The notes under the pieces were generated by a model. The model was not told where the DNA came from. It saw only the letters and a program-made list of their open reading frames with translations, and made no database searches. This document shows positions 30,974-61,117 of a stretch of DNA of 64,000 bases, piece by piece. The stretch is from contig OZ024740.1 in NCBI GenBank assembly GCA_964016885.1, positions 29,636,001-29,700,000 of the forward strand. The letters run 5' to 3'. Made by a program: the position numbers and the translations under genes. Position 1 is the first letter of the stretch. Every line of letters begins with the position of its first letter. Source of the stretch: Eledone cirrhosa. Its lineage: Eukaryota.

Positions 30974-31170
30974 TGTGGATTATTTTCTTTGTTTTGTACC
31001 TTTCCTTTGTTCTACCCCTACGCCATCTTATTTTTGTGTGTGTTGTGTGCTTAGTTTGCGCATGTGTTACATCCGAGTGTCTGTGTGTGTTTTTATTTGT
31101 TTATTTATTTGTTTATTTACATGTTACTGGTTGGTTGTTTGTTCTATGTGTGTGTGTTTTCATTTTGTCC

Positions 31171-31650: not shown

Positions 31651-31654
31651 GGAC

Positions 31655-34025
31655 CTAAACCATGCAACTTTAGAGAATAGAGATAAATATCCAGATAGGA
31701 TTGATGGTATAAACATGGCCGACATACCATTAACGGACGAATTCAACAACAACACAAATATATACGGCAACACTACAGTAGACTATGATGAACTATCCAT
31801 GTTACAGCTACCACCTAGATTTGCAACATATAATAAGGTAAATATGATAAGATGCTTGTCAGAAATAGAAAAATCATTTACAAAATTATGTTGGAGCCTC
31901 AAAAACAACAACAAAAAAACAAAAACAAAAGTAACAACACGAACAACATACGCACACACACACACACAACACATATCCCAACAACAACAGACACACAGAC
32001 ACAAACAACGATAACAACAACAATAATACCATAAACAGAGACAACAACAACAGACACACAGACACACACAACAATAACAACAACAAAACACACAACAATA
32101 ATAACAACATACACAGAGACAACAATAACACACATCAACAACAACAACAACACACACATCCTATGCCTCTCACCGCCACCACAATCTTAACAGACACAGA
32201 CACAGAAAACAGCTAATGACAGTAACACAGAGGTAAGGGACGGTAATGCGATTGAAAGAAGAAGAGATACTATCGATACTGACAGGGAAAATAACTAGGA
32301 CGAACATACAGACACACAAAATAGAGTAGATAATAACAATGAGCCAGAGGAAAGAGACAGGAATAATAATGAAAGACATAGAAACAACCATGAGGCTCTT
32401 AGTGGAAATAGAAATAGAAACAACACAACTATCAATATCAATAGCAATAGAACACATAACAAAGCAGCCTGGAATTCTACTTTCTATAATCCTTCCGATA
32501 TGTCCTTCAACTTACGACGAGTCCACGCCACGACTTTAGCTTTTAACAAACGCACACAATTGCCGTCGCAGGTCGATGAACAAACAGAATCACAATTTAA
32601 TATAGCTAGATATAAACTTAGAAATATTATAGAACAGTATAGCAAGAAGCAAAATAGAATGGAGGCCCAGCAACTGGGAGAAAAATCTGCAAATGGCTTG
32701 CGTAAGCTCATGCAGCGCTCACGTAATGAAGAGATTGCATGCTTTCCAACAGACAAGTCTGGCAGAATGTCGGTTGACAGTCTGTCAAACTACATCCAGG
32801 CAATGCAACCACCCATCACTAACACAAGAGAATTAACACCACAAGAGCATGAGGATAGGGAGAAAACCCTCAACGCCCATATGATGATGTGGACAAACAT
32901 AATGCAGCCCAATAAACGGACTGCCAACAACTTCCAGTCCTGGAACAATGACGTGCCAGCGTTGTATGGGCTTCGAAAAGACCATAAGACGAACAGTGAC
33001 CCAGTCACAGGACCACCAACATGGTCAGTTTGTAGAGCTAACATTGCTAGTAACTACAGACTTTCCTACTTCCTCTCCCTGATCGTACGCCCCATCATTG
33101 AAATGTTCCCGGATATATGTGACAGCACGGAGGACCTCCTCAGCAGAATCAGCGAAAATAACCGATCTAGGGACCTAACAGACTGTATAATAGGTAGTAT
33201 GGATGTAGTGTCACTATACCCATCCATTGACGTGGATTTTGCTGTGGAGAAATACATAGAAACGATCAATGAGAGCAATGTTGAATTCCGTGGGGTTGAT
33301 ACCAGTGAGCTGGGACTCCTACTTAAACTTACTTATAGTAATGATTATCTAGATACGTATGACCTTAGCAAGCTCTTCCCCACAAGGCCAGCAAGAGGCA
33401 GACCACCTACCATTACCTCAATGGCGAAGAAACTCCACACAGAAAGATGGAACGGGTGGGCCAGAGCCGTACGGACCCCCGAAAACCATGATGAACTAAA
33501 AAAATGATTGCACATGCGGTGAGGGCCAGTATAAAACTAACCCTTAAGGAATATATGTTCAAATTTAATGGAAAAACATATGCCCAAGAGGAGGGAGCAG
33601 CCATTGGTGTTAGCATTGCAGGTGACATAGCTAACCTATTCATGGTATGATGGAACAATAAACTTAAAGAACAATTAGAAGACAGCAACCTCTTAACCCT
33701 GATAATGTACTCTCGCTACGTTGATGATATAAACATCTAAGTAAAAACACCCCCACTAGAGAACAGTCAAGAATTAGATAAAAACACCATGGAAAGCATC
33801 CAGCAAATAGCTAACACCATCCACCAGAGTATTAGAGTTACCATAGACTACCCAAGCAAACACCCCAACCATCGATTACCTGTACTAGACACGGAGCTCT
33901 GGTTAGAAACCATTAATAACAAAAAACAAATCCTCCATTCCCATTATGCCAAACCCATGACTTCCAAATATCTGATCCACCGAAACTCAGCTGTTTCGGA
34001 TCACACCAAAATCAACATACTGATT
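31655..34025 (+). pseudogene. Penelope-like element N-terminal region and reverse transcriptase, disrupted
   Basis: LQLPPRFA...EIEKSFTKLCW, PTDKSGR, PALYGLRKDHK, IGSMDVVSLYPSI. After a frameshift in the A-run near 33500: FKFNGKTYAQEEGAAIGVSIAGDIANLFM, RYVDD (about 33714-33728), LPVLDTELW, HYAKPM. In-frame stops near 33648 and 33738. Confidence 0.9.
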
Positions 34026-34052
34026 TCTTATTGGCCACATAACCCTTCCAAA

Positions 34053-35432: not shown

Positions 35433-38069
35433 CCTGGATGCACGTTGGGACTATGCAGGAGCATGTCCTAATAGAGGGAGGTGTAACAGCCTCAAGGGGT
35501 TACTCGACCGTTTTAACTTGGCCGATAGATATCGACTAGATTTTCCAGCTGTGCCTACCTGGACTTGGAGAAACCACAGTGGTCAATCTAGATCGTACTT
35601 AGATAGATTCTTAGTTAGAAGTAAGGATAGGGACATATTAAGCTGTCCAGAAATGCGCACGGTTGGCTACACGGATCACAAATTAGTGACCTGCGTGGTC
35701 AATCTCGAGAAAACACATAGACAGGGTCTCGGTTACTGGAAACTTAATTTGTCTTTACCGGCAAAAGAGACTTACAGAAACCGGATTAGCAGATTAGTTA
35801 AGGAGAGGTTGACGGGTGCAATCGTCAACAACCGATGGTGGGCATCTCTCAAAAGAGAGATTAGAACAGAATCAATAAGTTATAGCAAGATGTTAGCTGC
35901 CGATAGGAATAGAAACGAGAAAGAATTAACAGGTAAATTAGAAGAGGCAATCAAGAGCGAAGATGTGGCCAGAGTGCTGGCATCGAGGACGGCCTTGAAC
36001 CAGTTTTTCGATGCAAAGCACGAAGGCTGCGTCATTCGAAGTAAAATACGTGCTCTAGGTAATGAGGGGGCCAAAGCCGTTGGATGGGCCCGCGTGACAG
36101 AAGCTAAGAGTGGAAATCGATCCACCATCCGGTCGTTGCAAGACGAAGATGGACGGGTGATCCGAGAGCCTAAGCAGATGTGCGAGGCCTTTCAAAGGCA
36201 CTTTGCCCGATTGTTCGGGGGAGGCGAGGGTCCGGGCGGGGGCGTGGATTTCGGTCCATACCTTGACGGCCTGCCGCGTCTCTCGAACGAAGAGGCAGAG
36301 TCCTGCGAGGGACCAATCTCGGCTGATGAGATCGGAGATGCGCTGAGCCAATGCAGCAGACGCAAATCTCCAGGTCTCGATGGTATACCTTACGAACTTT
36401 ATTTAGCAATGCCGGTCTTCTTCTCCGAACTCCTCGAAGCGGTCTACTGCAATTGGCAGCAGAACGGGAGAATTCCTTGTTCTGTAGCCAAGGGCGTAGT
36501 CACGCTGGTGAGGAAGGACGAGAACAAGGGAGATAGTATAAATAATTTTCGGCCCATAACCCTGCTAAACACAGAGTTAAAGATTTTGGCCAAGGTGTTA
36601 GCAAAGAGGTTGGCGCTTGTCGTGGGTGGCCTGGTGGGAGATGCGCAGACATGTGCTATCCCATCCAGGTCCATTCACGATAACCTCCACCTCATGCGAT
36701 ACATCATAGAGAGGGTTGGCAACAAACCCGGCTTCGGTGGGGCCCTGATCAACTTGGATCAGTCTAAGGCCTTCGATAGGGTCGACCATGGTTACCTGGA
36801 TGCGGTGCTAGCGGCGGCTGGGTTCGGTCCTGTTTTCAGAGGCTGGATCACTGCCCTACATAGCAACCACATCTGTTCTAGGATCAAGGTGAACGGCTAC
36901 CTTTCGAAGCCGTTCGAAATCACACGATCCATTCGACAGGGGTGCCCTCTCTCCTCCCTTCTGTACGTATTGACTCTCGAGCCTTTACTGAGGAAGTTGG
37001 AGTTGTTGCAGGGTATCCCCCTGGAACCAGCATTGAGCAAAGCGGTGTCGGCCTACGCCGATGACGTAACAGTAATGGTATCGACCGACTCGGAGATCGA
37101 GGCGATCGGTACCTTACTGGAGGAGTACGAAAAGTTGTCAGGAGCGAAACTGAACCGGGAAAAATCCATCGGGCTGCAACTCGGAACGTGGAGAAGCAGA
37201 CCGATGCCTCCTGACGGTGTCGTCGGACACTGGACGGAGGGCCTGGTAAAGTTGCTTGGGGTCTGGTTTGGACCGGACCTCCAGGTGGAAAAGAACTGGA
37301 ACGAGGTTACGAACAAGGTGTTTGCACTAACCCAGAAATGGGCCAAGTGTAAGCTGTCCCTAAAAGGCCGGGCGGAGGTGGCGAACATTTACATAGCGTC
37401 CGTCACTTACTACCGCCTGACTGTCGTGCCTTGCCCTAAGGAAACACTCACCACCATGGAACGCATGCTCTTCCAATTTCTTTGGAAGAAGCGCCCTCCT
37501 ATGGTGAGAAGATCCATCTGCTGCCAACAACCTTCGAAAGGAGGGCTGGGGATGCCGTGGTTGATGATGCGTAGGCACGCATTAAGGCTACGGCACCTAC
37601 AGGTATTCCTCACTGGTCAACCGGTGTGGGCTCCGTTCGTGAAACGAGCCTTTCCGAGACTCGTCTCGCTCACCGAGCTACAGTCCTGGGTCAAGCAAAG
37701 ATCCGGAAAACTGGTCTACTTCTTCCGATATCACTTCGGAAGAAGGATAAGAATGGAGAGAGAGGTGCTTGGCCACAGGCAGTTTTATGAAAGGTGGGTG
37801 ATAGTGGCGAGAATGGCTCGTGTAAATGGGCCTTCTCTGTATACCATCCTGTAGGTAAAGAAGTAAAGGAGAGGGGAGCACCTTCTCCATGTGCTCCCCG
37901 GGCAAAGGATTGCACACTTTTTCGGGGGTGTGTGCAACCCCCATCACGTCCCCTCCCTTTTGAGGTTATTTTCGATTATTTTAATGTTACACCCTTTTTA
38001 CTCGATTATATGTAAACTCCCCCTTTGTATTTGTCCCTTCTTTTTATGCCTTTATGGTAAATAAAGAAA

Positions 38070-38419: not shown

Positions 38420-38699
38420 TATGTCACAGGGACTCTAAGGCAGAGGTTTGTGCTGTGTCTATACTAAGTCACAGGGACCCTACGACAGAGGTTTGTGCTG
38501 TGTCTGTACTAAGTCACAGGGACTCAAAAGCAGAACTTTGTGCTGTCTCTGTACTATGTGATAGGGACCCTAAGGCAGAGGTTAAGGCTGTGTCTGTACT
38601 AAGTCACAGGGACCCTACGGCAGAGGTTTGGGCTGTGTCTGTACTAAGTCACAGGGACCCTACGGCAGAGGTTTGGGCTGTGTCTGTACTATGTCACAG
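38420..38699 (-). repeat. Orphan block of about 6 monomers of the 45-bp satellite in inverted orientation
   Basis: TGTCACAGGGACCCTA(A/C)GGCAGAGGTTTG(G/T)GCTGTGTCTGTACTA is the reverse complement of the array consensus. Confidence 0.95.
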
Positions 38700-40716
38700 A
38701 CAGCAGCTGTTCAACATAATTTTATAGATCGGTCACCCCTGGGCACTGAACAATTGCGTGCAGAACGGTTTCGATGTCCTGCTCGCATCTTGGACAGATC
38801 CTTTTGGCAGGATCTCTGCTAGGGCGTCCGTGCCTGTAGATTTTGTCTCGAACTGGTAGAGCTCCTCGGTATCACTGCCAGGCCAGAGACCTCTGGAAGT
38901 TATCCATAGCCCCTAGACGGAAAGTCCACCCGAGCAGACTGGTCAGTTCGTCCTCCTCGATGCCTGGATTTTCCCCAAGAACGTCGTCGCACTTATCCTC
39001 CACTAATCCCCTATAGAAGGTCGAAGTGGAGTCTCCGCTGATTGCCGTTTCCGCTTGGTAGAGGGCTGTGAGCGCCTGTAGGCACCCATTTTTGGTCTTC
39101 GCTTGACCCAGGACTGCAGCTCTGTTAGTGACACGAATTGTGGAAGAGCTTGTTTCACAAACGCCAGCCACACCGATTCACCGGTCAGGAATACCTGGAG
39201 ATGGCGTAGCCTCAGCGCATGTTTGTGCATCATCAGCCAATGCAGGCCCAGCCCTCCGTTAGAAGGGTGTTGACAGCAGATGGATCTCCTCACCAATGGA
39301 GCCTGTTTCTTCCAGAGGAACTTGAAGAGTAGGCGTTCCATTTTGGTAAGGTATTAGCGGGGGCAAGGCACGACTGTCAAGCGGTAGTAGATGACGGACG
39401 CTATGTAAGTGTTCGTCACCTCCGCTCGACCTTTCAAGGAGAGTTTGCACTCAGCCCAATTCTGGGTGAGTGCAAACACCTTCGCCGTGACCTCGTTCTA
39501 GTTCTTGTCCACCTGGATGTCTTGACCGAACCAGACCCCGAGCAATTTCACCGGTCCTTCCTTCCAGCGTCCAACGACACTGTCGGAAGGCATGGGTTTG
39601 CCTCTCCATGTGCCGAGTTGCAAACTGACATACTTGTTTGGGCTTAGTCTTGCTCCTGTCAACTTTTCGTATTCCTGTAATAGGTTGCCGATTACTCCGA
39701 TTTCCGAGGTTTTCGACACCATTACCTTTATGTCGTCGGCATAGGCCGATGCTGCTTTCCGCAGTCCTGGTTCGATCGGGATACCCTGCAACAGCTCCAA
39801 CTTCCGGAGTAACGGCTCGAGAGTCAGTACATACAGAATAGAGGAGAGAGGGCATCCATGACGGATGGAACGCATGACTTGGAATTGTTTCTGATAGGTA
39901 GCCCTTCACCTTGACTGCCGAGCAGATGCTGGTGTGCATGGTAGCGATCCAGCCTCTGAAGACGAGACCGAAGCCGGCCGCCTTGAGAACTGCTTCCAAG
40001 TATTGATAGTCGACCCTATCAAATGCCTTAGACTGATCTATATTGATCAGAGCCCCACCGAAGCCAGGTTTACACCCTACCCTCTCTATGATGTATCGCA
40101 TGCAGTGGAGGTTGTCGTGTATGGACCTGGTCGGGATTGCACACGTTTGGGCTTCCCCTACCAGGTTCTCGATGACAAGCGCCAGCCTTGCTGCTAACAC
40201 CTTGGCCAAAATCTTTAACTCTGTATTGAGCAGAGTTATGGGCCTGAAATTGCTTATCTCACCTCCCTTGTTCTCATCTTTCCCTATCAGCGTTACTACG
40301 CCTCTGCCTACAGAACTGGGAATCCTCCCGTTCTGCTGCCAGTTGCAGTAGACCGTTTCGAGGACGCCAGAGAACAAGTCTGGCATGCCTATGTAAAACT
40401 CATAGGGTAGTCCATCTAAACCGGGTTATTTGCGTTTCCCGCAGCGGCCTAGGGCATCTTCTATTTCGCCCGCTGTGGTCGGCCTTTCGCAGCTCGAGAG
40501 TCGCGGTACGCCGTCGAGGTAGGAGCTGAAATCCATCACCTCGCTCGATGTACCGCTTTGCCCGAACAGTTGTGCAAAATGCTGCTGGAAGGCCATACAC
40601 ATCTGCTTGGATTCAAGTAGAATGCATCCATCATTGTCTTGCAAGGACCGAATTGTGGATTTCTTGCCACTCGGGCCCAGCTAACAGCTTTGGCTCCCTC
40701 GTTTCTTAGAGCACGA
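38700..40716 (-). mobile_element. Degenerate Tx1-like LINE fragment (copy A), truncated at both ends
   Basis: Frameshifted ORF2 pieces (NFRPITLLN, IDQSKAFDRVD, SAYADD, MDNFQRSLAWQ). The 3' side abuts the inverted satellite and the 5' side abuts (TATC)n. Confidence 0.92.
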
Positions 40717-40781
40717 TAGATAGATATATAGATTGATAGACAGATAGATAGATTGATTGATAGATAGATATTTAGAGAGAT

Positions 40782-42824
40782 ATATTTCTTTATTTGCCAC
40801 AGGGGCGTGCAAGAAATGGGACATTACAAGACGTGACAGCGGGGTTTTACATGAAATCTTTAACAATAATAATTATTTTTACATTTGGCACAAGGCCAGC
40901 AATTATCCAGTGTATTACTGGTGCTTTAACTATAATAATGGATAACAATAAGCTATATATTAAAATATTAACAATCGAAATCCCCAATAGGGGCGAACGT
41001 TATTGCGTGGTTGTTTCACACCCCATAGATAGAACAACCCTCAACACCAGGAGCACGTTTTATAGGTGTTCCTGTCTTCCCTCTTTTTGTCTTCCTCAAC
41101 CTATAGGTTTATATACAGAGAACGCCCATTTATTCGGGCTATTTTCACCACATTCAACCACATTTCAGCGAATTTACTGCGGTGTAGCACCTCTCTCTCC
41201 ACTCTCACCTTCCTTCAGAAGTGGTACTCAAAGAAGGGGATAAGTTGTTGTCCGGAGAGGAAGGTGTTTGTCCTCAGTCATTTTAACCTCGTCCACCATA
41301 TAACCTCTTTCGCCATAGCCACCAGACAGAGGAAAACCGCCCCTCTTTCGTTCTTAAATGAAGGCGGCGGGGTGATCCTCATGATGGACTCGGCTGACAA
41401 CTGGATGCGTCCCACACGTGACAGTAGCTGTTCGACATAATTCCACAGGTCGGTCAAACCTGGGCATTTAACAATTGCGTACAGAACGATTTCAGTGTCC
41501 TGCTCGCATCTTGGACAGGTCCTTTTGACAGGATCTCTGCTAGGGCGTCCATGCCTGTAGATTTTGTCTCGAATTGTTAGAGCTCCTCGATAGCACTGTC
41601 AGACCAGAGACCTGACAGTTATCCATAGAGACCTGGAAGTTATCCATAGGCCCTGGATGGAAAGTCCTCCCGAACAGACTGGCCAGTCCATCCTCTTCGA
41701 TGCCTAGAGATCCCCCGAGAACGTCGTCGCACTTAAACTCCACTAATCCCCTATAGAATGTTGACGTGGAGTCTCCGCTGATTGCCGTTTCCGCTTGGTA
41801 GAGGACTGTGAATGCCTGAATGCACTCGAGATGCCAGGCACCCATGTTCCGTCTTCGCTTAACGCAGGACTGCAGCTCCGTTAGCGGGACCAGTTGTGGA
41901 AAAGCTCGTCTCACAAACGACAACCACACCGTTTCACCGTGGCTGATGATGTGCAAACTCAGCGCGTGTTTGTACATCATCAGCCACGGCATGCCCAGCC
42001 CTCCATTAGAAGGGTGTTGGCAGCAGATGGATCTCCTTACTAATGGAGCCTCTTTCTTCCAAAGGAACTTGAAGAGTGGACGTTCTATTTTGGTAAGGTG
42101 ATCACGGAGTCAAGGTACGACTATCAAGTGGTAGTAGATGATGGACACTATGTAAGTGTTTGCCACCTCCACTAGACCGTTTAGAGTTTGCACTCAGCCC
42201 ACTTCTGGTTGAGTGCAAATACCTTTACCGTGATCTCATTCCAGTTTTTGTCCACCTGGAAGTCTCGACCAAACCAGACCCCGAGCAATTTCACCGGTCT
42301 TTCCGTCCAGCGTCTATCGACGCTGTCGGACAACATGGGTTTGCCTCTCCAAGTGCCAAGTTGCAAACCAACAGACTTGTTCGGGTTTAGTTTTGCTGCT
42401 GTTAACGTTTCGTATTCCTGTAATAAGTTGCCGATTACCCCGATTTCCGAGGTTTTCGACACCATTATGGTTAAGTCGTCGACATAGGCCGATGCGGCTT
42501 TTCGCAGTCCTGGTTCGATCGGGATGCCCTGCAATAGCTCCAACTTCCGCAGTAGTGGGTCGAGAGTCAGTCCATACAGGATGGAGGAGAGAGGGCATCT
42601 TTGACAGATGGAACGCGTGATTTGGAATTTCTGTATCGCATGAGGTGGAGGTTGTCGTGTATGGACCTGGTCGGGATTGCCCACGTTTGCGCTTCCCCCA
42701 CCAGGTTCTCTACGACGAGCGCCACCCTCGTTATAACACCTTGGCCAAAATCTTCACATCTGTGTTGAGCAGGCTTATGGGCCTGAAATTGCTTATGTTA
42801 TGCCCTTTGTTCTCATCTTTCCTG
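40782..42824 (-). mobile_element. 5'-truncated, degenerate Tx1-like LINE (copy B) with internal deletion near 42632
   Basis: SAYVDD, VKLLGVWFG, MPWLMM. The 3' end CCCCTGTGGCAAATAAAGAAAT runs into (TATC)n at about 40717-40780. Confidence 0.92.
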
Positions 42825-42851
42825 AGATAGATAGATAGATAGATAGATAGA

Positions 42852-45800
42852 TATGTTTCTTTTATTTGCCACTAGGGCATCAAAAGTGGGACAAGTACAA
42901 AGGGGGGAGTTTACACAAAAAGGCGTCCTCAATAAGGAGGAGGCAATAACAAAATATAAAAATAAAATAAGATATAACAAAAAATAAAATTTTTAACAAA
43001 ATCCTCAATAGAGAGGAGGCGCCTTGGGGGGTCGCACACACCCCCGAAAAAAGTGTGCAACCCTTCTCCTCAGGAGCACAGAGAAGGGGTGCTCCCTTGG
43101 TCTTTCATCTTCCTCACCTACAGTCTGATGTAGAGTGAAGGCCCATTCAAACGGGCCATTCTCGCCACTTTCACCCATCTTTCATAGAAACGGCTGGGGT
43201 GCAGCACCTCTCTCTCCATCCTGATCCTTCTTCCGAAATGATATCGGAAGAAATGGACCAGTTGTTGGCCAGAGAGAAAGGTGCCTGACCTCAGTCCTTT
43301 CAGACGCGTCCACCATACAACCTCTTTCGCCATGGCTATTACGCACAGAAACACCGCCTCTGCTTCATCTTTGAAGGGGGGAGGCGGCTTGATCATTACA
43401 ATAGACTCGGTGGTCAACCGGATCGGTCCCACCCTTGACAGCAGTTGTTCGACATAGCCCCACAGATCGGCTACGCCCGAGCAGTGTACCAATGCGTGTG
43501 CAACGGTTTCCTCGTCGCACACGCATCTGGGACAGATCTTTTTGGCGGGGTCCCTACCCGGGCGCCCGTGTCTGTAGAGCCTTTCTCGAACGGGTAAAGC
43601 CCCTCGGTAGCACTGCCAGGCCAGGGACTTCTGGAAGTTGTCCATAGGTCCCGGGCTGAATGTCCTACCGAACAGGCTGGCCAGTTCGTCCTCCTCCATG
43701 TCTAGGGCTTCTCCGAGGGCGTCGTCGCACCTGCTGCGTACCAGCCCTCTATAAAATGTTGCGGTGGAGTCTCCACTGATAACCGGATCCGCCTGCCAGA
43801 GGGCGGTGAGCGCCTGGGCACACTCAGTGTGCCAGGCGCCCAGTTTTCTCGGTCTTTGCTTGACCCAGGATTGCAGCTCGGTGAGTGAGACGAGTCTGGG
43901 AAGGTTCGTCTCACAAACGAGGCCCACACCGGTTGTCCGGTGAGGAATACGTAGAGGTGCCGTAGCCTTAATGCGTGTTTACGCATCATTAGCCACGGCA
44001 TCCCCAGCCCTCCTTTCGAAGGGTGTTGACAGCAGATGGATCTCCTCACCATAGGAGCCCGCCTCTTCCAAAGGAATTGGAAGAGCGCGCGCTCCATCTT
44101 GGTGAGGGTTTCCCTTGGGCAGGGCACTACGGTCAGGCGGTAGTAGATGACGGACGCTATGTAGGTGTTCGCCACCTCCGCCCGACCTTTCAGAGATAGT
44201 TTGCAACTGGCCCACTTCTGGGTCAGTGCAAACACCCTGTTCGTAACCTCCGCCCAGTTTTTCTCCACCTGGAGGTCCGGTCCGAACCAGACCCCGAGCA
44301 ACTTCACCGGGCCCTCCGTCCAGCGTCCGACGACGCCATCGGAGGGCATCGGTCTGCCCCTCCACGTGCCGAGTTGCAAACCGATCGACTTGTCCCAGTT
44401 CAGCTTAGCCCCTGTGAACTTTTCGTACTCCTCCAGTAAAGTGCCGACCGCCTCGATTTCGGAGGCCGTCGACACCATTACTGTCACGTCATCGGCGTAG
44501 GCCGACACCGCTTTCCGCAATCCCGGTTCCAAAGGGATGCCCTGCAACAACTCCAACTTCCGCAGTAGTGGCTCGAGAGTCAACACATACAGAAGGGAGG
44601 AGAGAGGGCACCCTTGTCGGATGGACCGCGCGATTTTGAACGGCTCCGAGAATTCTATCGAGACTACTCTAATCTCTCTCTTTAGAGATACCCACCACCT
44701 GCTGTTGACGATCGCTCCAGTCAACCGTTCCTTAACTAACGTACTAATCCGATTCCTGTAGGCTCTACTTGCTGGCAAGGACAGATGCGGCTGCTGTGCA
44801 TAGCAGTGATCCAGCCCCTGAAAACGGGTCCGAAGCCTGCCGCCGCTAGCACCGCATCCAGGTAACCATGGTCGACCCTATCGAACGCCTTAGATTGATC
44901 CAAGTTGATCAGAGCCCCACCAAAGCCGGGTTCGTTCCCAACCCTCTCTATGATGTATCGCATGAGGTGGAGGTTGTCATGGATGGACCTGGACGGGATA
45001 GCGCATGTCTGCGCATCTCCCACCAGGTTGCCCACGACAAGCGCCAACCTCTTTGCTAGCACCTTGGCCAAAATCTGTAACTCTGTATTTAGCAGTGTTA
45101 TGGGCCTGAAGTTACTTATTTCGTCCCCCTTGTTCTCGTCCTTCCTCACTAGCGTGACTACGCCCTTGGTCACAGTACAGGGAATTCTCCCGTTCTGTTG
45201 CCAGTTGCAGTAGACCGCCTCGAGGAGATCGGGGAACAAGTCCGGCATAGCTAGATATAATTCGTAAGGAAGACCATCGAGACCCGGGGATTTGCGTTTG
45301 CCGCATTGGCTCAGCACGTCCTCTATCTCAGCGGCCGAAATCGGCTCCTCGCAGGACTTCGCCTCCCTGTCCGAGAGGCGCGGCAGGCCGTCGAAGTATG
45401 GACCGAAGTCCACGTTCCCAACCGGCTCCCCGCCCCTCCCGAACAGTCGGGCAAAGTGCCTTTGAAAGGCCTCACACATCTGCCTAGGCTCAAGAATCGC
45501 CCGTCCATCCAGGTCTCGCAAAGACCGGATGGTGGATTTAGTTCCACTGTTGGCCTCTGTCACGCGGGCCCAGCCAACAGCTTTGGTCCCCTCGTTCCCT
45601 AGAGCACGTATTTTACTTCGGACAACGCAGCCTTCGTGCTTCGCGTCGAAAAACTGGCTCAAAGCCGTTCTCGACGCTAGCACTCTGGCCACGTCGCCGC
45701 TTCTAATTGCCTCTTCTACTCTATCTATTAGCTCCCTTTCCTTCCTATTCCTATCCGCAGCTAGAACCTTACTAAATTCTATCGAGACTACTCTAATCTC

Positions 45801-45972
45801 TCTCTTTAGAGATACCCACCACCTGCTGTTGACGATCGCTCCAGTCAACCGTTCCTTAACTAACGTACTAATCCGATTCTTGTAGGCTCTACTTGCCGGC
45901 AAGGACAAGTTGAGCTTCCAGTAACCGGGGCCCTGTCTATGAGTTCTGTCAAGGTTGACCATGCAGGTCACT
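42852..45972 (-). mobile_element. 5'-truncated Tx1-like LINE (copy C) with RT and C-terminal CxxC...H...C region
   Basis: GYWKLN, KSPGLDG, DQSKAFDRVD, AYADD, CPRCVCDEETVAHALVHC. The 3' end CCCTAGTGGCAAATAAAAGAAACAT runs into (TATC)n at 42825-42851, and the 5' end abuts (TATC)n at 45974-46035. Confidence 0.94.
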
Positions 45973-45973
45973 A

Positions 45974-46036
<63 letters not shown>

Positions 46037-51925: not shown

Positions 51926-52254
51926 ATTATAAGTTGATATTTTCAGTCCTAAACTGCATATACGTCTGGATTTTATTTATGTTGGAAGTCAAATACTGGC
52001 CATGTAGAGGTTTATTTTGTATTTTGTCTTCATTTACTAAAGGGTTGTTTCCTTTGCACATATGTAGCCTTTGTGACACTGTTGGTGATAGAGGAGTTTC
52101 GTGTGTCAAAGTTGTGTTCAGATTTATTTCCCCATTTATATTTTCTGATTTGCTTTTATTATTGGCTAAAACTTTTTGGTGATTTCGTGTTGTTTTACTA
52201 CCTACGTCATTCAATCATTGGTTGCTTCAAGATATTTTTAATATTATTATTATT

Positions 52255-52340
52255 TACGGGGTCGATAAAATAAAGTACCAGTAATGCACTGGTTAATTGC
52301 TGGCCTTGTGCCAAAAGTAGAAACAATTATTATTATCATT
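52255..52340 (+). mobile_element. 3' half of a tRNA-derived SINE, flanked by (ATT)n
   Basis: TACGGGGTCGATAAAATAAAGTACCAG...GGCCTTGTGCCAAAAGTAGAAACAATTATT matches the SINE copies at 59196 and 60762. Confidence 0.85.
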
Positions 52341-52342
52341 AT

Positions 52343-53050
52343 AGTTGCATTTATTTTGCTTTATGTTCATACGAGTTATCACCAAGTCACAACCAGTGAC
52401 CTCAAGAGACAACAAGGTCCGCCATGTTCAAGAAAGAACATACATACACACATGCATCTTTGGGTGTTTAGACATGTGATGTACTTATATTGACAGAATC
52501 TTCCTTAGTATATGGACAGTTCCCATTAGTACTATCTTTTGCATTTCTCCTATACGCGGATTTCCTGGGATTTGCGATAAGTAATCATTAGACCCGTTAG
52601 GTATCATTCCTAGAGCGCCTACAACCACTGGTATTGTTTTAGTTCTCAATTTCCACATTTTTCCAATTTCTATCTCCAGGTCCTTATACTTGCTCAATTT
52701 TTCAAATGTTTTTATAGATACCTTCTTGTCTATTGGAACGGACATATCAAATAGCAGGCATACCCTCTTTTTAAAGTCCTTCAGTATTATATCAGGTCTA
52801 TTTGCATCTATTTTTCGGTCTGTTTGGATGCTAAAGTTCCACTAGATTGAGGTGTGATCTTTTTCAAGTATGGGAAGTGGTTGATGCTTCCACCAGTTCT
52901 TTTGATGGGGCAGGTCAAAATGCTTACACATTATCCGATGTATGTACTGTGCAGCTCTGTCATGCCTGTTTAGCTATTCGGTTGGAGATATAGGACTGCA
53001 CATTGAAATTATATGATCAATGGTCTCTGGTTGTTTTTTACATATTATTT
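52343..53050 (-). mobile_element. 5'-truncated R4/Dong-like non-LTR retrotransposon (end of CCHC finger, restriction-like endonuclease, 3' UTR)
   Basis: CKKQPETIDHIISMC, NRHD, IQTDRKIDANRPDII...FDMSVP...EKLSKYKDL...IPVVVGALG are PD..D-type RLE motifs. The frame has in-frame stops, and the 3' end runs into (TAA)n. Confidence 0.88.
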
Positions 53051-53341
53051 TTTACATATTGTTTTACATATTATTTTTTACATATTGTTTTTTACATATT
53101 TTTTTAATTATTATTATTATTATTATTGAATGCTATGGTTGACGGAGGCTCGGCTCTGTAAGGTATTGTAAATTTTGACCGCTATAACAATTGTAAATTG
53201 TTTAAAACTTTAACCAAATTGTAGACAAAAACACCCTCCTCCTCGTGAGAGGGGTCTTTCTGTCCGTTATTTGGCTCTTCGGGTTAAATAACCGCTTATT
53301 GGGGTTTTGTGCCCAATATTTATTTTAAACAAAAAAAAAAA

Positions 53342-55443
53342 ATGGCTACGAAAAAAAATTTTCATAGGTCACTCCCACTCATTCCGTCTTCTTCTTCCTC
53401 AATCGTCACTACAGCAGAGAGAAGATTGTCTCTCTACCTCTCTTCTCTAAATGTGTCTCTCTCCCTCCCTTCTTTTTCGCAAGCGACGCCAGAAAAGAAA
53501 AATCACGTGCAAAGCCTGCAAGATTTCTCCACGACGACGAAAAAGGTGTGCGGGAAATACGAAAACCCATTTCATTCGTCTGACGTCAGGAATAATAGCA
53601 GTAGCAGCCGTAATAACAGCAGCAGCAGCAACAGTGACAAGGAAAACAACAGTAGCAGCCACAACAGCATCAGCAGCAACAGCAACAACAGCAGCAGCAA
53701 CAACAACAACAACCACAGCAACAGCGGCGGCGGCAGTAGTCGTAGTACCTGCAGCAACAACAAAAGTAACAGCAGCTCTGACGACGACAACAACAACAAC
53801 AACAACAGCAGCAAAGAAAAACCAATCTCGTTTGCAGGTATCGCAAAGAACCTGGAAACCATCCTCATAACAAATGAGGAATTAGAGGAAGCGAAGAAGA
53901 TGGTGACAAAAACTGGACACCGAGCAATCTGCAAGGCAGCCGAAAAATGTTCGAAACCCAACAGCACTGTACGGTCACGTACCGTACAGTAAGCACAAAA
54001 TCACGTAGGGTTGAAAGAGCCACAGAGTCTCAAATACAAAAAGCCTTGGGGTCTATGTGGCAGCGGAAAACGCACATCACCCGAGGCAAGAAATATGCCA
54101 CCGTAGACGTACTTTTTGCCACACCCCAGGAGGCAAAGGCTCAATCCTTAGTGACCCTAAGGAGCGAGGAAATGGTGTTGGTGCCCTCCTACTGCGGGCA
54201 AAAAATTGTGAGGGTCAAACTGACACACGCCCACCCCCCCGAGATGGCCCCTTATTGGCTGGCCGCGTCTGTCCTCGTCGGAATCGAGGACAAAACAACT
54301 GTACTGCAAGTACAGAAAAAAGTAAGAGAAGATTGGGTCGGCACCTCCATTGAGTTAATCCAAACCAACCAGGAGTGCATCGAAGCTATCCCGGATGTGA
54401 TAGATTTCGATAACGGCACTCAACTGCCCATAAGTGTTGAGGGCAAACGCCCGAAATGCTTTCGCTGTGGATCGAAGACTCACCTCAGGGCCTTCTACAA
54501 CGAGAAGACCCTGAGAAAGTAGAAAACCCCCCTCCTTCCGAAACCGGCTCCACGGCTACCAGCAATAGGACAAGCGGCAACCAGGAACGATAGATCCGTG
54601 GCACCCATACCCACGCCACGGAAATCAAAAACAGCAGCAGCAGTGGAAGTATTAACAACAACAACAGCAATACCAAATGCAGCTGCAACAGAGACTCCAG
54701 TGCAAACATCACCAACAACAACAAGTGAAAGAGTGGAGCCGGTACCCCGCCCCGACCTCACAGAATCAGACATGGGATGTGAGGTGGGAGAGGGATGGCA
54801 AAAGGTCGTAAGAAGCCACAAACGCAGAAGCAGCGCATCGTCGCCTTCGAAAAGGGAGGAAAGAAATGAAAAAAGGGTAAAGGCTACTGCAAAGAGATTC
54901 ACAGCAGCAACACCACCAACACCATCACCACCCACACTAGCACCACCATCACCACCGGCGACAACCCCACCGCCAACAACAACAACAACTTCAACACCAC
55001 CACCACAAGCACCAACATCGCAAACACAACAACAAAACACACACACCCAGCAACAACGACAAGAAAATAGTAGAACCACACCTCACCCCCACAAAAACAA
55101 ATGCACGGCAATAAATACACACAACAAGAAACTAATGACTTACATAATTGAACAGACAGACATTTCACAACACGACTACATAATACCAGCACCAATCAAA
55201 ACGCCAACTAAGATAAGACTGCTAAAAATAGCACAGAAACAATACACAAACATTAAAACGAAATTCCCCAACGCAGTTGGTGATTTCAGAGACCTAGGAG
55301 GGACTCTCAATCGAAGAGTATATTCGGACATACTCATAGAAGAGCCGACGACCAGCCGAAGGGACGATTCAACGGTCCCTTCACCAGACGATCAAGTGAA
55401 AAGGGATGGAAAAACCATCCTTCCTCTACGAAAAGTACGGTAA
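53342..55443 (+). pseudogene. LINE ORF1 (gag-like), frameshifted
   Basis: ATG at 53342, an S/N-rich linker, ISFAGIAK, a degenerate zinc knuckle CFRCGSKTHLRAFY (last Cys replaced), GWQKVVRSHKRR and a P/T-rich tail. The three frames end 35 nt before ORF2. Confidence 0.75.
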
Positions 55444-55478
55444 GTGGTCTTTCCCATCTTTTCCACTCTATTTTAAAC

Positions 55479-58400
55479 ATGACCCCACTCAGAATAGGCA
55501 GCATAAATGCACGTGGCTTGGGGTCGTCATGGAAGCAGGGTCACCTGCTCAACGACCTGAGGTCACTAAACATAGATGTAGTGGCCATCAGCGAGACCAG
55601 AATCTCCGAAGCACGGGCCTTCGCACCGATCTTCGGCGGCTACGATGTGTACGCATCTCCCAGCCGTCCTGGATCGGGGGGGGGGGGGAGTTGCTGTGCT
55701 TTTTCGGAGAGGTTTGGATCTCGCCATACGGGCTATCTTCCTGGACCCAGACGGTAAGTTGGTGGTGCTGGACGTGACCAGCGGAGACGGGCAAGCTTTC
55801 AGGCTAGTGGCCGTCTATGCCCCGACAGGAGCAGGGCGGCCTAATTTCTTTGGGCGTCTGGAGACCTTTCTTGGAACGTCCCGCTCTTTAGTGTTAGTGG
55901 GCGACTGGAACGGGATCTTAGATGCACGCTGGGACTGTGTGGGATTAGCGCATAGGGGTGGAGAGTGCAAGTGCCTCACCAACCTGCTCAGGCGTTTTGA
56001 ACTGTCTGATAGGTACCGATTGGATTTCCCGAATGTGCCAATGTGGACTTGGACAAATCGCATAGGGTCATCCAGATCATATCTAGATAGAGTATTTTGT
56101 AGGGAAATAGATTGGTCTAGCATAGGCTGTCCACAATTCAAGATAGTCAGCTACACGGACCACAAATTCGTGATTTGTGTGCTTGACTTAGATAGGCTTC
56201 ATAGACGAGGACCCGGCTACTGGAAGCTAAACGCGTCCTTACCAGCGCGCAAACCCTACAGAGACCGGATTAGCGAACTAGTTAAGCGGGCGTTGACGGG
56301 GGCCATCGTCAACAACAAGTGGTGGTTTTCTCTGAAAAGAGCGATTAGAATAGAATCCACTCGGTTTAGTAAGGCTTTAGCAATAGGGAAAAATAGAGCA
56401 GAGGGAGAACTAGTTGAAAATTAGACGAGGAGCTTAGCAAAGGCATCGCGACCGACGTGCTTGCGGCGAAATTGGCCCTTGACCAATTCTTCAATGCAAA
56501 GCACGAAGGCTGCGTTGTCAGAGCAAGGGTGCGTGCTCTCAGACACGAGGGGACGAAAGCCGTTCAATGGGCCCGAGTGGCGGAGGCGCGTCGTGGAAAC
56601 AAAGCCACGATCCGGTCTTTGGTGGACCACGACGGGCGCATGCTACTCGATCCCGGGCAAATGTGTGAAGCTTTTCAGCGACACTTCGCTCATCTGCTCG
56701 GGGGCAGCGGTGGGCCGGGTCGAAGGATGGACTTTAGTGTCTACCTCGACGGACTGCCGCGGTTCTCGGCCACTGAGGCGAAGTGTTGCGAAAAGCCGAT
56801 AACAGTCGCTGAAGTAAGGGAGGCAATGACTGGCTGCACAAGGGGTAAATCGCCTGGTTTGGATGGTCTGCCCTATGAACTTTACGTACATAGGGCAGAC
56901 TTGTTCGGAGGCCTCTTGGCGGACGTCTACTGCAACTGGCAACAAAACGGGAGAATTCCCAGTTCTGTGAGCCGAGGAGCGGTGGCACTGCTGAGAAAGG
57001 ATCCGAATAAGGGGGATAACATAGATAATTTCCGGCCCATAACTCTGCTAAACACAGAGTTCAAGATTTTGGCCAAGGTGCTAGCAAAGAGGTTGGCGCT
57101 TGTCGTTGGTGGTCTGATGGGAGAGGCGCAGATATGCGCCATTCCCGACAGATCCATACACGACAACCTCCACCTCATGCGATACATCGTAGAGAGGGTA
57201 GCTAGGGAACCTGGCACGGGTGGGTCCTTGATCAATTTAGATCAGTCGAAAGCTTTCGATAGGGACGACCATCGTTACCTAGCGGCAGTCCTGAGGGCGG
57301 CTGGCTTTGGGCCCGTCTTCAGAGGCTGGATCGCTGCCATGCACAGCGACATCTGCTCTGTGGTGAGAGTGAACGGTCACCTGTCGGAACCGTTCAACAT
57401 CATGCGCTCGGTCCGCCAAGGATGTCCCCTCTCGTCCTTCTTGTACGTATTGACTCTCGAGCCATTACTGCACAAACTGGAGACGTTGAGGGGCGTCCCG
57501 CGCGAACTAGGATGCGGAAGATCCGTGTCAGCATATGCCGACGATGTCACCGTAGTGGTGTCGAACGCCAAACACATCGAGGCGATCGGCACTACTCTAA
57601 GAGAATACGAAGCGGTGACAGGAGCAATGATCAACCAGGAAAAGTCAGTGGCCTGCAGCTCGGCACCTGGAGAGGCAGGTCCATGCTGTCCAATAGCGTC
57701 GTCGGACGCTGGACGGACGGACCGGTTAAATTGCTAGGGGTCTGGTTCGGTCCGGACCTCCAGACGGACAAAAACTGGGACGAGGTGACGAGCAGGGTGG
57801 CTTCTCTCACCCAGAAATGGGCGGAGAGGAAGTTATCCCTGAAAGGTCGAGCGGAGGTGGCTAACGCGTACATCGCGTCTGTCATCTGCTACCGCCTGAC
57901 CGTCGTACCTTGTCCTAAGCCTCGCCTGACTGCGCTGAAGCGTTTGCTCTTTCACTTTTTGTGGAAGGGACGCGCTCCGATGGTCAGGCGGTCCATCTGT
58001 TGTCAACACCCGCTACGTGGAGGGCTGGGCATGCCGTGGCTGATGATGCGCAGGCACGCGCCCAGGCTACGACATCTCCACCTCTTCCTCGACGGTGACC
58101 AGGTGTGGTCGCCGTTTGCTAGACACGTATTTCCCCAGCTCGTTTCCTTGACGGAGCTGCAGTCCTGGGTCAAGCGAAGACCGAGAGGGAGCGCCTGGAG
58201 ACTGGAATGCCTTCAGGCGCTCACAGCCCTCGACCAATCGGGCAATGTGATCGGTGGAAACTCCACCTCGGCGTTCTATAGAGGATTAGTGGAGGGGAAG
58301 AGCGACGACGTACTTGGGGAAACTCCAGGCGTCGACGAAAATCAACTAGCCAATCTCTTCGGAAGAACTCTCGGGCCGGGGCCTATGGACAACTTCCAGA

Positions 58401-58899
58401 AGTCTCTGGCCTGGCAGTGCTACCGAGGAGCCTTGCCAGTTCGGGATAAACTCTACAGGCATGGAGGTCCCGTCAGCCGGACATGCCCGAGATGCGCGCA
58501 GGGCGACGAAACCGTCCTGCACGCACTCGTCCAGTGTCCGAAAATTGCTGACTTGTGGGTTTATGTCGAACACCTGCTGTCGCGTGTAGTACGGATCCGG
58601 CTATCATCTGAGTCCATCGTGAGGATTGCCCCGCCCTCCTCCTTTAGCCGGGAAGGGCAGGCAGTTTTTATCTGTCTGGTGGCCATGGCGAAAGAGATAG
58701 TATGGTGGACACGTTTGAAAGGGTTGAAGACGAGCACTTACCTCTTCGGTGATGCTCTGATTGACTTTTCAAATTTCATTTGAAAAGGAAAATCAGAGTA
58801 GAGAGGGAAGTGCTCTCTTCCCAGCATTTTGTTGAAAGATGGGTGAGAGAAGCAAGTATGGCCCGAGTGAATGGGCCTACTCTGAGTATATATCTGTAA
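55479..58899 (+). pseudogene. LINE ORF2 (APE endonuclease, RT, Cys-rich C-terminus) with about 4 frameshifts
   Basis: IGSINARGL, VVAISETR, VYAP, GDWN, SYLDR, YTDH, KSPGLDG, QGCPLS, AYADD, CPRCAQGDETVLHALVQC. Frameshifts at the G-run near 55680 and near 56420, 57650 and 58770. Confidence 0.92.
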
Positions 58900-59147
58900 A
58901 TTAAAGGTGGAAAACTGGGAGAGGGCACTTGCCTTGGTGGTCAGGGTCACTGTGGCCTTTTACTGGGCTTTCTCCACAAATGTCCCTCCGATGTCTCCCC
59001 CTATTGGGGAATTTTTCATTGTTATTTTTTTGTTACATCCTCTGTTTTTGTTTTTTACACGCAGAAATGCCCATTTGTACCGTCCTGTATTGCCCTGCAC
59101 TGTCCTTAATGTCTACTTTATGTAAACCCTTGTGGTTAATAAAGAAA

Positions 59148-59195
<48 letters not shown>

Positions 59196-59196
<1 letters not shown>

Positions 59197-59393
59197 GGGC
59201 GGTGAATTGGCAGTATCGGTAGAGGGTCGACGCCATGCTTTGACGCTTGAGTTACGGCCCTTGCCATTCTGAGTTCAAATCCCGCCGAGGTTGACTCTGC
59301 CTTTCATCCTTACGGGGTCGATAAAATAAAGTACCGGTAATGTACTGGTTAATTGCTGGCCTTGTGCCTAAAGTAGAAACAATTATTATTATT
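59196..59393 (+). mobile_element. tRNA-derived SINE, complete, with (ATT)n tail
   Basis: A box TGGCAGTATCGG (59208-59219), B box GAGTTCAAATCC (59271-59282), central GCCTTTCATCCTTACGGGGTCGATAAAATAAAGTACC domain (resembles the MetaSINE core, from memory). Confidence 0.88.
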
Positions 59394-59663
59394 CATAATG
59401 CTTTCTTCTGGCAGATGTTATACCGACAATATACACAACAGAGCTATAACCAATGGCCAAAGGTCTTTGGATGATTCCTTCTCCTTCAACCTTCCAACAC
59501 CCATCTTGGAATCCTTGCTGTCCCTAACAAGGCTGTTTTCTGCAACAATCCTGTCCTAATGGTAATTACTAGCTTCTCAAGCCATACATCCAACCTTCTA
59601 CTAACTACTCCCAGTACACCAATCACAACCGGTACCATTTCCGCGTGCCTGATTCACCACAAT
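59394..59663 (-). mobile_element. Second, divergent R4/Dong-like 3' fragment
   Basis: Minus strand encodes EMVPVVIGVLGVV...LLQKTALLGTARIPRWVLEG*, homologous to IPVVVGALG...MQKIVLMGTVHILRKIL at 52485-52640. Its 3' end abuts (TAA)n. Confidence 0.75.
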
Positions 59664-59665
59664 AT

Positions 59666-60750
59666 TAGGAAGCTATCACTGAAAGGTCGCGCGGAGGTGG
59701 CAAATGCGTGCATCGCGTCCGTCATCTACTACCGCCTGATCGTCGTGCCTTGCCCCCGTCCGCGCCTTGTCAAGTTGGAACGGCTCCTCTTCAAATTCTT
59801 GTGGAGGGGACAAGTTCCGTTGGTGAGGCGGACCATCTGCTGCCAGCACCCTCTACGCGGAGGGCTGGGCGTGCCGTGGCTAATGATGCGCAGTTCTATA
59901 GAGGATTAGTGGTGGGCAAGTGCGATGACGCACTCGGAGAAGCTTTGGGCCTCAACGAAGTCGAACTGACCAGTCTGTACCGGAGGACTTTCGAGCCGGG
60001 GACGATGGACAATTTCCAGAAATCCCTCGCTTGGCAGTGCTACCGGGGGGTACTGCCGGTTCGGGATAAACTCTACAAGCACGGAAGTGCTGTCAGACGG
60101 ACCTGCCCAAGATGCGCACAGAACGACGAAACCGTTCTGCACGCACTTGTCCAATGTCCGTGCATTACTGACTTGTGGAGTTATGTCGAACAGCTTCTGT
60201 CGCGTGTGGAACGAATCCGACTATCGGTCGAGTCCATAGTGAAGATCGACCCGCCGCCTTCCTTAGAGGTTATATGATGGACCAGATTAAAAGAACTGAA
60301 AACAGACACTTTTCTCTTCGGCCAATCCCTCATCAACTTCTTCAAGTTTCACCTGGAAAGGAGGGTGAGGGTGGAGAGAGAAGTGCTGCCCCCCAGTACA
60401 TTTGCTAAAAGGTGGGTGAATGTGGCGAGAATGGCTCGTGTGAATGGGCCTACTCTGACCATGCGCCTATAGGCTGGCTAACTTGAGGAGAGGGGTGCTC
60501 TCCTGGGTGCCCTAGAAGCACAGGGTGGTTCAGGATTGGTGGGGTACCTGAAGCACTCCAGGGTCGTACACCCCCTATCGGGGAATTTATTTTGTTATAT
60601 TTATGCATAGTTTATTTTATATTTTTATATTTTCATTTTTAAATTAGTCTTGCCATTGTGCACTTTTACTCCACCTTATTGTAAACCCCCACTGTCCCTG
60701 TCTTTGTATTGTCCCCTACATGTCGGTCCTTGTGGCCAATAAATGAAATC
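59666..60750 (+). mobile_element. 5'-truncated Tx1-like LINE (copy E) with internal deletions near 59891 and 60270
   Basis: RKLSLKGRAEVAN, MDNFQKSLAWQCYRG, CPRCAQNDETVLHALVQC. The 3' end CCTTGTGGCCAATAAATGAAATC is followed by (ATT)n. Confidence 0.9.
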
Positions 60751-60761
60751 ATTATTATTAT

Positions 60762-60907
60762 TACGGCTCTTTACAGTCTGAGTTTAATTTCTGCCGAGGT
60801 TAACTTTGCCTTTCATCCTTACGGGGTCGATAAAATAAAGTACCAGTAATGTACTGGGGTAATTGCTGGCCTTGTGCCAAAAGTTGAAACAATTATTATT
60901 ATTACTA
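60762..60907 (+). mobile_element. 5'-truncated copy of the same SINE with (ATT)n tail
   Basis: Degenerate B box, central domain and GGCCTTGTGCCAAAAGTTGAAACAATTATT tail. Confidence 0.85.
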
Positions 60908-60908
60908 T

Positions 60909-61117
60909 TTGGCAGTATCGGTAGAGCGTTAGACACCATGGTTTTTGGAATAGAGTTGCGTCCCTTTCCATTCTGAGTTCAAATCCCGCCGAGGTTAACT
61001 TTCCGTTTCATCCTTACGGGGTCGATAAAATAAAGTACCAGTCACGCACTGGGATTCGAATTAATCGACTTCCCCCTCCCCCAAATTGCTGGCCTTGTGC
61101 CTATATAAGAAATCATT
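60909..61117 (+). mobile_element. SINE copy, longer variant retaining an extra internal segment
   Basis: A and B boxes and central domain, plus GGGATTCGAATTAATCGACTTCCCCCTCCCC, which is absent from the other three copies. Tail is CCTTGTGCCTATATAAGAAATCATT. Confidence 0.85.

What the first reader, a model, noticed from the sequence alone, without database searches (positions are those of the whole stretch)
52240..61117. (ATT/TAA)n insertion hub shared by three unrelated retroelement types
Seen: (ATT)-SINE-(ATT)-R4/Dong(-)-(ATT)-full Tx1-like D(+)-(ATT)-SINE-(ATT)-R4/Dong(-)-ATT-Tx1-like E(+)-(ATT)-SINE-(ATT)-SINE. Almost every junction is an ATT tract, the SINEs and Tx1 copies are all on +, and both RLE fragments are on -, so each ends in (TAA)n. 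Known: Dong elements of the R4 clade target (TAA)n. Inference: an APE LINE, its SINE and an RLE LINE have converged on one microsatellite. Each insertion regenerates targets, producing self-extending 'retroelement trains' in safe-harbour repeats.
Basis: partly seen in the sequence, partly recalled or inferred. Interest (0 to 1): 0.75.

Follow-up and report, generated by a model that had tools for sequence, protein, structure and literature searches.

The report
ATT microsatellite shared by three retroelements
Eight jumping-gene copies sit end to end here, and across this genome two unrelated LINE groups and a short element that likely borrows one group's enzyme lie in the same ATT repeats with fixed, opposite polarity, so repeated insertion likely builds such trains.

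Summary
In detail: SINE, Dong-like (-), Tx1-like D (+), SINE, Dong-like (-), Tx1-like E (+), SINE, SINE, with ATT tracts at all junctions but one. It is one example of a genome-wide pattern, not a special hub. Of 29 other full-length D copies, 29 have (ATT)n at the 5' end; 5'-truncated copies mostly do too, so the tract is a target and not only a tail. In 1 Mb of random sequence, 34 of 75 ATT tracts touch an element (other trinucleotides 8 of 193), and 45 of 46 contacts obey the polarity. Corrections: the SINE needs only ATTAT, not a microsatellite; it ends in the Tx1-like 3' hairpin, so it is likely a passenger rather than unrelated; Dong-Tx1 adjacency is no higher than sharing tracts predicts; 'safe harbour' was not tested and no empty site was found. 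A sister Tx1-like clade targets (TATC)n. Each ingredient has a precedent (Dong/TAA, Kibi, Koshi, SART/TRAS); ATT- and TATC-specific Tx1 and a tail-sharing Tx1/SINE pair were not found in my searches. This scan has noted the same system at many other places in this genome.

The parts
52240..52254 (+). ATT tract, left edge of the train
52254..52325 (+). SINE, 5'-truncated 3' part ending in the GGC-CTTGT-GCC hairpin and GAAA
52326..52342 (+). degenerate ATT tract shared by the SINE tail and the Dong1 (TAA)n tail
52343..53044 (-). Dong1: 5'-truncated R4/Dong-like RLE LINE (CCHC, PD..D..K, 3' UTR); young family, 97-98% to best copies
53045..53106 (-). about five reiterated copies of the first 14 bases of truncated Dong1 (likely repeated re-priming at the 5' junction)
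53107..53127 (+). (ATT)7 target tract 5' of D
53128..59149 (+). D: full-length L1/Tx1-like LINE (ORF1 with zinc-knuckle motif, ORF2 APE-RT-zf), frameshifted; 3' hairpin AACC-CTTGT-GGTT then AATAAAGAAA
59150..59194 (+). (ATT)15 tail/target tract
59196..59381 (+). full-length SINE (short type) with Pol III A- and B-box-like motifs read by eye
   Evidence: no Rfam match
59382..59393 (+). (ATT)4 shared by the SINE tail and Dong2 tail
59394..59666 (-). Dong2: 3' end of an older, different Dong-like family (best relatives 86%)
59667..60750 (+). E: 5'-truncated Tx1-like LINE with an internal deletion; only one ATT at its 5' junction
60751..60762 (+). (ATT)4 tail/target tract
60761..60891 (+). SINE, 5'-truncated
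60892..60903 (+). (ATT)4 tract
60909..61114 (+). SINE, long type, older (best fetched relative 86%)
38699..45973 (-). second train in the same window: three Tx1-like copies of the sister clade separated by (TATC)n tracts at 40715-40782, 42825-42853 and 45974-46036
35435..38069 (+). A: truncated copy of a very young (TATC)n-associated Tx1-like family

Best explanation
The 9-kb stretch is a train of eight retroelement copies of different ages joined by ATT repeats, likely built by independent target-primed insertions into one tract. Shown: Tx1-like families D and E lie in (ATT)n on the ATT strand, Dong-like families lie in the same tracts on the TAA strand, and the SINE sits at short ATTAT sites with 9-20 base target duplications. 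Inferred: the APE nuclease of the Tx1-like ORF2 nicks the AAT strand and primes on the RNA's ATT tail; the restriction-like nuclease of Dong nicks the other strand; the SINE RNA presents the same 3' hairpin-GAAA-ATT signal and is copied by the Tx1-like ORF2. Each insertion leaves a tract on both sides (duplication plus tail), so a used site stays usable. The two LINE groups share the target but do not cooperate.
For: Tract at both ends of D: 29/29 3' ends and 29/29 full-length 5' ends (window's own copy excluded). 5'-truncated copies, which cannot bring a 5' tract with them, have one (by eye): E 11/13, D 3/6, Dong1 10/16. Dong1 29/29 and Dong2 18/24 end in (AAT)3+, E 23/24 in (ATT)3+. Random 1 Mb (100 x 10 kb): 34/75 ATT tracts touch an element vs 8/193 other trinucleotide tracts (Fisher p 5e-15); counting only element 5' ends, 22/75 vs 2/193 (p 9e-12); 45/46 contacts obey polarity. 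Anchored sets: 77/135 ends have a neighbour within 100 bases (background 2.1%), 76/77 in the predicted orientation. SINE: duplications of 10+ bases in 26/87 (shuffled pairings 0-4), 22 of the 26 starting with ATT; at L160 the duplication includes a Dong 3' end, so a Dong tail was used as target. Tail: 4-bp stem, 5-base loop, 6-7 base spacer, GAAA in five Tx1-like families and all four window SINEs, with a both-sides change (C-G to G-C) in the SINE stem; 15/25 and 17/25 ungapped identity to D, shuffle p 0.007 or lower against all four Tx1-like tails tested. Mixed ages argue against one duplication event.
Against: No empty site was seen, so no single insertion order is proven. Cross-class pairs in the random sample were few and not enriched (Dong-Tx1 1, Dong-SINE 1, SINE-Tx1 2 with and 4 against the rule; 50 of the 59 rule-following pairs are SINE-SINE); of the 4 against, 3 are weak low-complexity hits and 1 is two tracts facing each other. 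Anchored loci are the best-scoring, youngest copies and some are not independent (L332/L333, L275/L276, L018/L028). Tx1 tails precede full-length D more often than tract sharing predicts (12/29 vs 3/32, p 0.006), and a triple D array has identical 5' ends, so recombination may add to trains. The SINE-Tx1 likeness is only 25 bases; one SINE-Dong4 comparison gave p 0.02; only one RTE family and no CR1/L2 tail were tested. 3/6 truncated D and 6/16 truncated Dong1 copies lack a 5' tract.
Confidence: 0.82

Rival explanations
1. The ATT tracts are only element-made tails, and clustering comes from survival in gene-poor, repeat-rich regions rather than from targeting.
For: All three element types end in ATT/TAA, so tails alone create tracts next to elements; the window is satellite-rich.
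Against: Tracts stand at 5' junctions of truncated copies and 22/75 random tracts abut an element's 5' end; shuffles within each 10-kb locus keep regional density yet give about 6 rule-following pairs against 59; regional survival does not explain strand polarity or the separate (TATC)n clade (0/48 with ATT).
Confidence: 0.04
2. Trains grow mainly by unequal recombination or gene conversion between copies and tracts, or by read-through transcripts that carry neighbours along, not by fresh insertions.
For: Three tandem D copies at G000:C1:57.09-57.10 Mb share 100% identical 5' ends (164-172 bases) and the same linker while their 3' ends are 93-97% alike; Tx1-Tx1 adjacency exceeds tract sharing; tandem A copies at L341.
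Against: The window's train mixes six families, two orientations, different truncation points and ages from 86% to 99%; no repeated multi-element unit is present.
Confidence: 0.08
3. The targeting model is right but the SINE is carried by another LINE (RTE, Dong or an unseen CR1/L2 family) that also ends in ATT/TAA.
For: An RTE family ends in an ATT-rich tail on its sense strand (L350, L074); the SINE's target is much looser than D's.
Against: SINE tail resembles Tx1-like tails and not the RTE tail (p 0.06 or higher); Dong uses the other strand; duplications of similar length start with the tail motif in truncated Tx1-like copies (L003, L249, L318). Weaker target preference in Tx1-dependent SINEs has a precedent (SINEU-1 23%, SINEU-2 13%; PMC4494074, passages).
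Confidence: 0.12

Closest known systems
Kibi (TC)n, Koshi (TTC)n and crocodilian (TTCC)n/(TTTC)n Tx1 families (PMC4494074, PMC3812793; passages read)
   Same: APE-type LINE of the L1/Tx1 group with microsatellite-specific insertion
   Different: Targets here are (ATT)n and (TATC)n, not listed in those passages; an invertebrate host; two target classes within one clade; phylogenetic link to Kibi/Koshi not tested
Dong of Bombyx, DongAg, and snail DongBg (PMC3812793, PMC3774820; passages)
   Same: R4-lineage RLE LINE in (TAA)n; Dong-R4 is abundant and recently active in Octopus vulgaris (PMC13282606, first third plus passages)
   Different: Nothing new in Dong itself; at least four families here share tracts with an APE LINE
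SART and TRAS in Bombyx telomeric repeats (PMC10088271, passages)
   Same: Two LINE families in one repeat in opposite orientation, forming arrays
   Different: Both are R1-clade APE elements at telomeres; here APE and RLE classes share a dispersed microsatellite. R1 and R2 sharing 28S rDNA is a further precedent (recalled, not looked up)
SINEU with Tx1-Mar (PMC4494074, passages); maize and Chlamydomonas L1-clade SINE/LINE pairs (PMC3747384, passages)
   Same: SINE mobilised by a Tx1/L1-clade LINE; tandem SINEs around a duplicated target; stringent 3' stem-loop in the plant pairs
   Different: SINEU-1 shares no 3' end with a LINE; here an animal SINE shares a hairpin and ATT tail with Tx1-like LINEs
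Double insertion of TEs in Drosophila (PMC5932611, passages)
   Same: Insertion-site preference plus target duplication gives tandem elements that may later expand by unequal exchange
   Different: Here multi-family trains with fixed polarity on a microsatellite

Membership tests
L1/Tx1 group LINE (D, E) | ORF2 with N-terminal APE nuclease, RT and C-terminal zinc finger | tested here: met
   Pfam Exo_endo_phos, RVT_1, zf-RVT; an intact D-type ORF2 (L344, 1152 aa) matches human L1 ORF2p at E 3e-52 and R2 at 4e-19
L1/Tx1 group LINE (D, E) | ORF1 with CCHC zinc knuckle | tested here: met
   CX2CX4HX4C in 14 of 15 other full-length D copies showing the motif; the last Cys is changed in the window copy and L139
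Tx1 clade proper | RT phylogeny groups with Tx1L, Kibi, Koshi rather than L1 | tested here: inconclusive
   Best named homolog is a coral 'Transposon TX1 149 kDa protein' (E 1e-83), but the quick tree had no reference Tx1 or L1 rows and leaves that row in an open fork
Target-specific LINE (criterion of PMC4494074: target in more than 20% of flanks) | Same repeat at flanks in fixed orientation | tested here: met
   D 29/29 at both ends, E 23/24, Dong1 29/29, Dong2 18/24
R4/Dong RLE LINE | RT followed by CCHC and PD-(D/E)xK nuclease | tested here: met
   Motifs in translation; a 770-aa Dong1 frame matches only R2 structures, E 8.5e-23 over residues 55-716
R4/Dong RLE LINE | (TAA)n target on the sense strand | tested here: met
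R4/Dong RLE LINE | RT phylogeny with Dong and R4; 5' HDV-like ribozyme | not tested
   No reference rows and no full-length 5' end fetched
tRNA-derived SINE | tRNA-like head with A and B boxes, short length, target duplications | tested here: inconclusive
   Length about 190-205, box-like motifs by eye, duplications in 26/87; no Rfam tRNA match up to E 5
Octopus OK/OR1/OR2 (CORE) SINEs | Sequence match to the published consensus | not testable with these tools
   Resemblance is recalled only; the SINEBase supplement could not be read
Stringent SINE/LINE pair | Shared 3' end with conserved stem-loop | tested here: met
   only 25 bases, shorter than the 35-61 reported for bivalve pairs (PMC11481361, passages)
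Stringent SINE/LINE pair | Mobilisation depends on that end | not testable with these tools
   Needs a retrotransposition assay

The most novel reading that the evidence does not exclude
One Tx1-like clade recognises its RNA by a conserved 3' hairpin, has switched target once from (ATT)n to (TATC)n with its tail repeat switching in step, and is the engine of this genome's roughly 190-per-Mb SINE family. Together with Dong on the other strand it turns ATT microsatellites into polarised, self-renewing landing sites that shape several percent of a likely octopod genome.
Probability: 0.6. Interest if true: 0.65.

Novelty: new variant of a known kind. Interest (0 to 1): 0.5.

Why it matters
It gives a mechanism for retroelement clustering in a likely octopod genome, where hotspots have been mapped without any target analysis (PMC13282606: no occurrence of 'target' or 'nested' in the main text), and names a candidate partner LINE for a dominant SINE. 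Closely related families with different microsatellite targets (ATT vs TATC) and intact ORF2 copies (L344, L341) make nuclease-versus-tail control of target choice directly testable. ATT microsatellites in such genomes are often element junctions, which matters for marker design and assembly.

Tried and rejected
Empty-site search: four public contig sets and one RAD-seq run laid on the train and its left flank showed no empty allele; repeats swamped the joints, so this is uninformative. No RNA holder listed. Rfam gave no match for the SINE. First adjacency statistics were distorted by two library contaminants (115 bases of another repeat on my Dong4 entry; a short segment of C1); the Dong-Dong and Tx1-Tx1 rows there are void and were redone. 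I first read Dong1 as a fixed-length 700-base non-autonomous element; rejected, since other copies continue into the RT. The 24 family-A rows were dropped from the 5'-junction count because the reference copy's own deletion made false junctions. Cooperation between Dong and Tx1 was tested and not found. The careful tree did not finish; only the quick tree is used. Literature: 8 answered searches found no paper on ATT- or TATC-specific Tx1 or on a Tx1 partner for octopus SINEs; Kojima and Fujiwara 2004, Ohshima and Okada 1994 and Repbase entries were not read and may bear on this, as may the unread SINEBase supplement.
Full report
Setting. The window is G000:C1:29636001-29700000 of a 3.0-Gb assembly. 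The mix of abundant SINEs, Dong-R4, L1-Tx1, RTE and Penelope elements fits what is published for octopuses (PMC8967140 passages; PMC13282606 first third and passages), so the host is likely an octopod; this is an inference.

Observation. The region holds eight elements in the stated order and orientation. D and E encode APE, RT and zinc-finger domains. The two minus-strand pieces are 3' ends of two different RLE LINE families; the longer one reads CCHC and PD..D..K, and its relatives extend into an RT whose only structural matches are R2 proteins. Junctions carry 3-15 ATT units except Dong2/E (one ATT) and the right edge (one ATT). D is full-length but frameshifted.

Tail or target. I took the best-scoring genome copies of each end (29 or 24 per set after removing the window's own; the tool scored 40 of 360-2290 candidates per query). 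All 29 D 3' ends and all 29 full-length D 5' ends have (ATT)3+ within 30 bases; E 23/24; Dong1 29/29 and Dong2 18/24 have (AAT)3+ on their own strand. A 5' tract could in principle be co-transcribed, so I read 5'-truncated copies: E 11/13, D 3/6 and Dong1 10/16 still have the tract at the junction (by eye). Where an insertion lies at a tract edge the duplication is visible and is 12-18 bases starting with the tail motif (L003, L318, L249, L245).

Unbiased test. In 100 random 10-kb stretches there are 75 tracts of (ATT)4+. 34 touch a SINE, Tx1-like or Dong-like element within 40 bases, against 8 of 193 ATC, TAG, TTG and TTC tracts and 2.2% of random points; 22 of 75 abut an element's 5' end, which own tails cannot explain (2 of 193 in controls); 45 of 46 contacts put SINE and Tx1-like on the ATT strand and Dong on the TAA strand. 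Of 65 adjacent pairs, 59 follow the rule (within-locus shuffles 6.4 and 6.3), and 15 chains of three or more occur against 0.9. Most of this signal is SINE-SINE (50 pairs); cross-class pairs were too rare here to test. In the anchored sets 77 of 135 ends have a neighbour within 100 bases (background 2.1%) and 76 obey the rule. Chains around 20 full-length D copies run from 1 to 6 members within 10 kb (some members are pieces of one element), so eight in a row is the long tail of an ordinary process.

Sharing, not pairing. Dong lies next to D as often as next to any long ATT tract (7/29 vs 7/32; 6/29 vs 8/32). A Tx1-like tail precedes full-length D more often than tract sharing predicts (12/29 vs 3/32 long tracts, p 0.006). 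That could reflect a preference for fresh tails or some recombinational growth: a triple D array has identical 5' ends and linkers but different 3' ends.

The SINE. There are 192 hits per Mb. It is not microsatellite-specific: of 87 random copies with an intact 3' end, 36 have ATTAT and 8 have (ATT)3 at the 5' flank (background 5.2% and 0.23%), and 26 show duplications of 10 or more bases, 22 of them starting with ATT. Its last 25 bases mirror the Tx1-like end: short stem, five-base loop CTTGT, six-base spacer, GAAA, ATT. The five Tx1-like families keep the stem through different base pairs, and the SINE swaps one C-G for G-C. Similarity is significant to all four Tx1-like tails tested, not to an RTE tail, and not to Dong tails apart from one borderline value. 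Mobilisation by the Tx1-like ORF2 is therefore likely, not shown.

A sister target. Families A and C2 end in (TATC)n (20/24 and 18/24; none of 48 in ATT); 9 of 12 truncated C2 copies have TATC at the 5' junction, and the window itself holds a three-member TATC train at 38699-45973. In a quick RT tree of 29 rows the local families form one clade (SH-aLRT 100); the five TATC rows form one branch (99) with E as sister (100), which suggests a single switch from ATT to TATC (no bootstrap, midpoint root).

Order in the window. Dong2 and the last SINE are oldest (86% to best relatives), the middle SINEs 93-95%, and D, E and Dong1 youngest (98-99% over the searched ends). This fits stepwise growth; the exact order is not proven, as no empty site was found.

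Comparison and verdict. Dong at (TAA)n, microsatellite-specific Tx1, opposite-strand sharing of one repeat, Tx1-dependent SINEs and tandem formation by double insertion are all in print. Eight searches did not turn up ATT- or TATC-specific Tx1 or a tail-sharing Tx1/SINE pair in animals, but key primary papers and Repbase were out of reach. Earlier notes of this scan describe the same system elsewhere in this genome; they are not independent support. One of them prompted the pairing test. Verdict: real, well supported, a new variant of known kinds; interest 0.5.

Noticed in passing
window 38699-45973 (-) and 35435-38069 (+): Second train of Tx1-like copies separated by (TATC)n; families A and C2 are TATC-associated genome-wide. 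A SINE 3' piece sits inside the 3' UTR of one copy (40861-40928, same strand).
   Followed up: yes
L341 (G000:C1:348922900-348929400): Family A is extremely young: 39 other copies at about 100% over 310 bases, tandem copies 5.8 kb apart, and uninterrupted ORF1 and ORF2.
   Followed up: partly
L344, L345 versus window 53128-55400: Families D, F and G share ORF2 (94% and 88%) but have different 5' UTR and ORF1 regions, suggesting 5' module exchange.
   Followed up: partly
L347-L350 (G000:C1:57.085-57.105 Mb): Three tandem D copies in the ATT-rich tail of an RTE element, with identical 5' ends and linkers but 3' ends 93-97% alike.
   Followed up: partly
L350, L074: An RTE family ends in an ATT-rich tail that D (L350) and Dong1 (L074) have used; a fourth clade may seed the tracts (2 copies only).
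   Followed up: partly
window 53045-53106: About five reiterated copies of the first 14 bases of the truncated Dong1 at its 5' junction.
   Followed up: partly
L075: A truncated Dong1 copy is flanked by a duplication of at least 48 bases of a SINE 3' end, much longer than other duplications.
   Followed up: no
L344, L342 versus L341, L346 nuclease domains: ATT-type and TATC-type families differ at two short loops of the APE domain; candidates for target choice, by analogy with the L1 hairpin loop (recalled).
   Followed up: no
window 1-26971 and 31100-34050: A 45-base satellite of over 500 copies and a Penelope-like element with a weak GIY-YIG match.
   Followed up: no
L130, about 6640-6760 on +: Another short repeat with about 25 hits per Mb, found as a library contaminant; not classified.
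   Followed up: no
one search hit list: 37 of 40 listed D 3' hits are on the minus strand, not seen in the other searches; probably an artefact of how candidates are picked.
   Followed up: no
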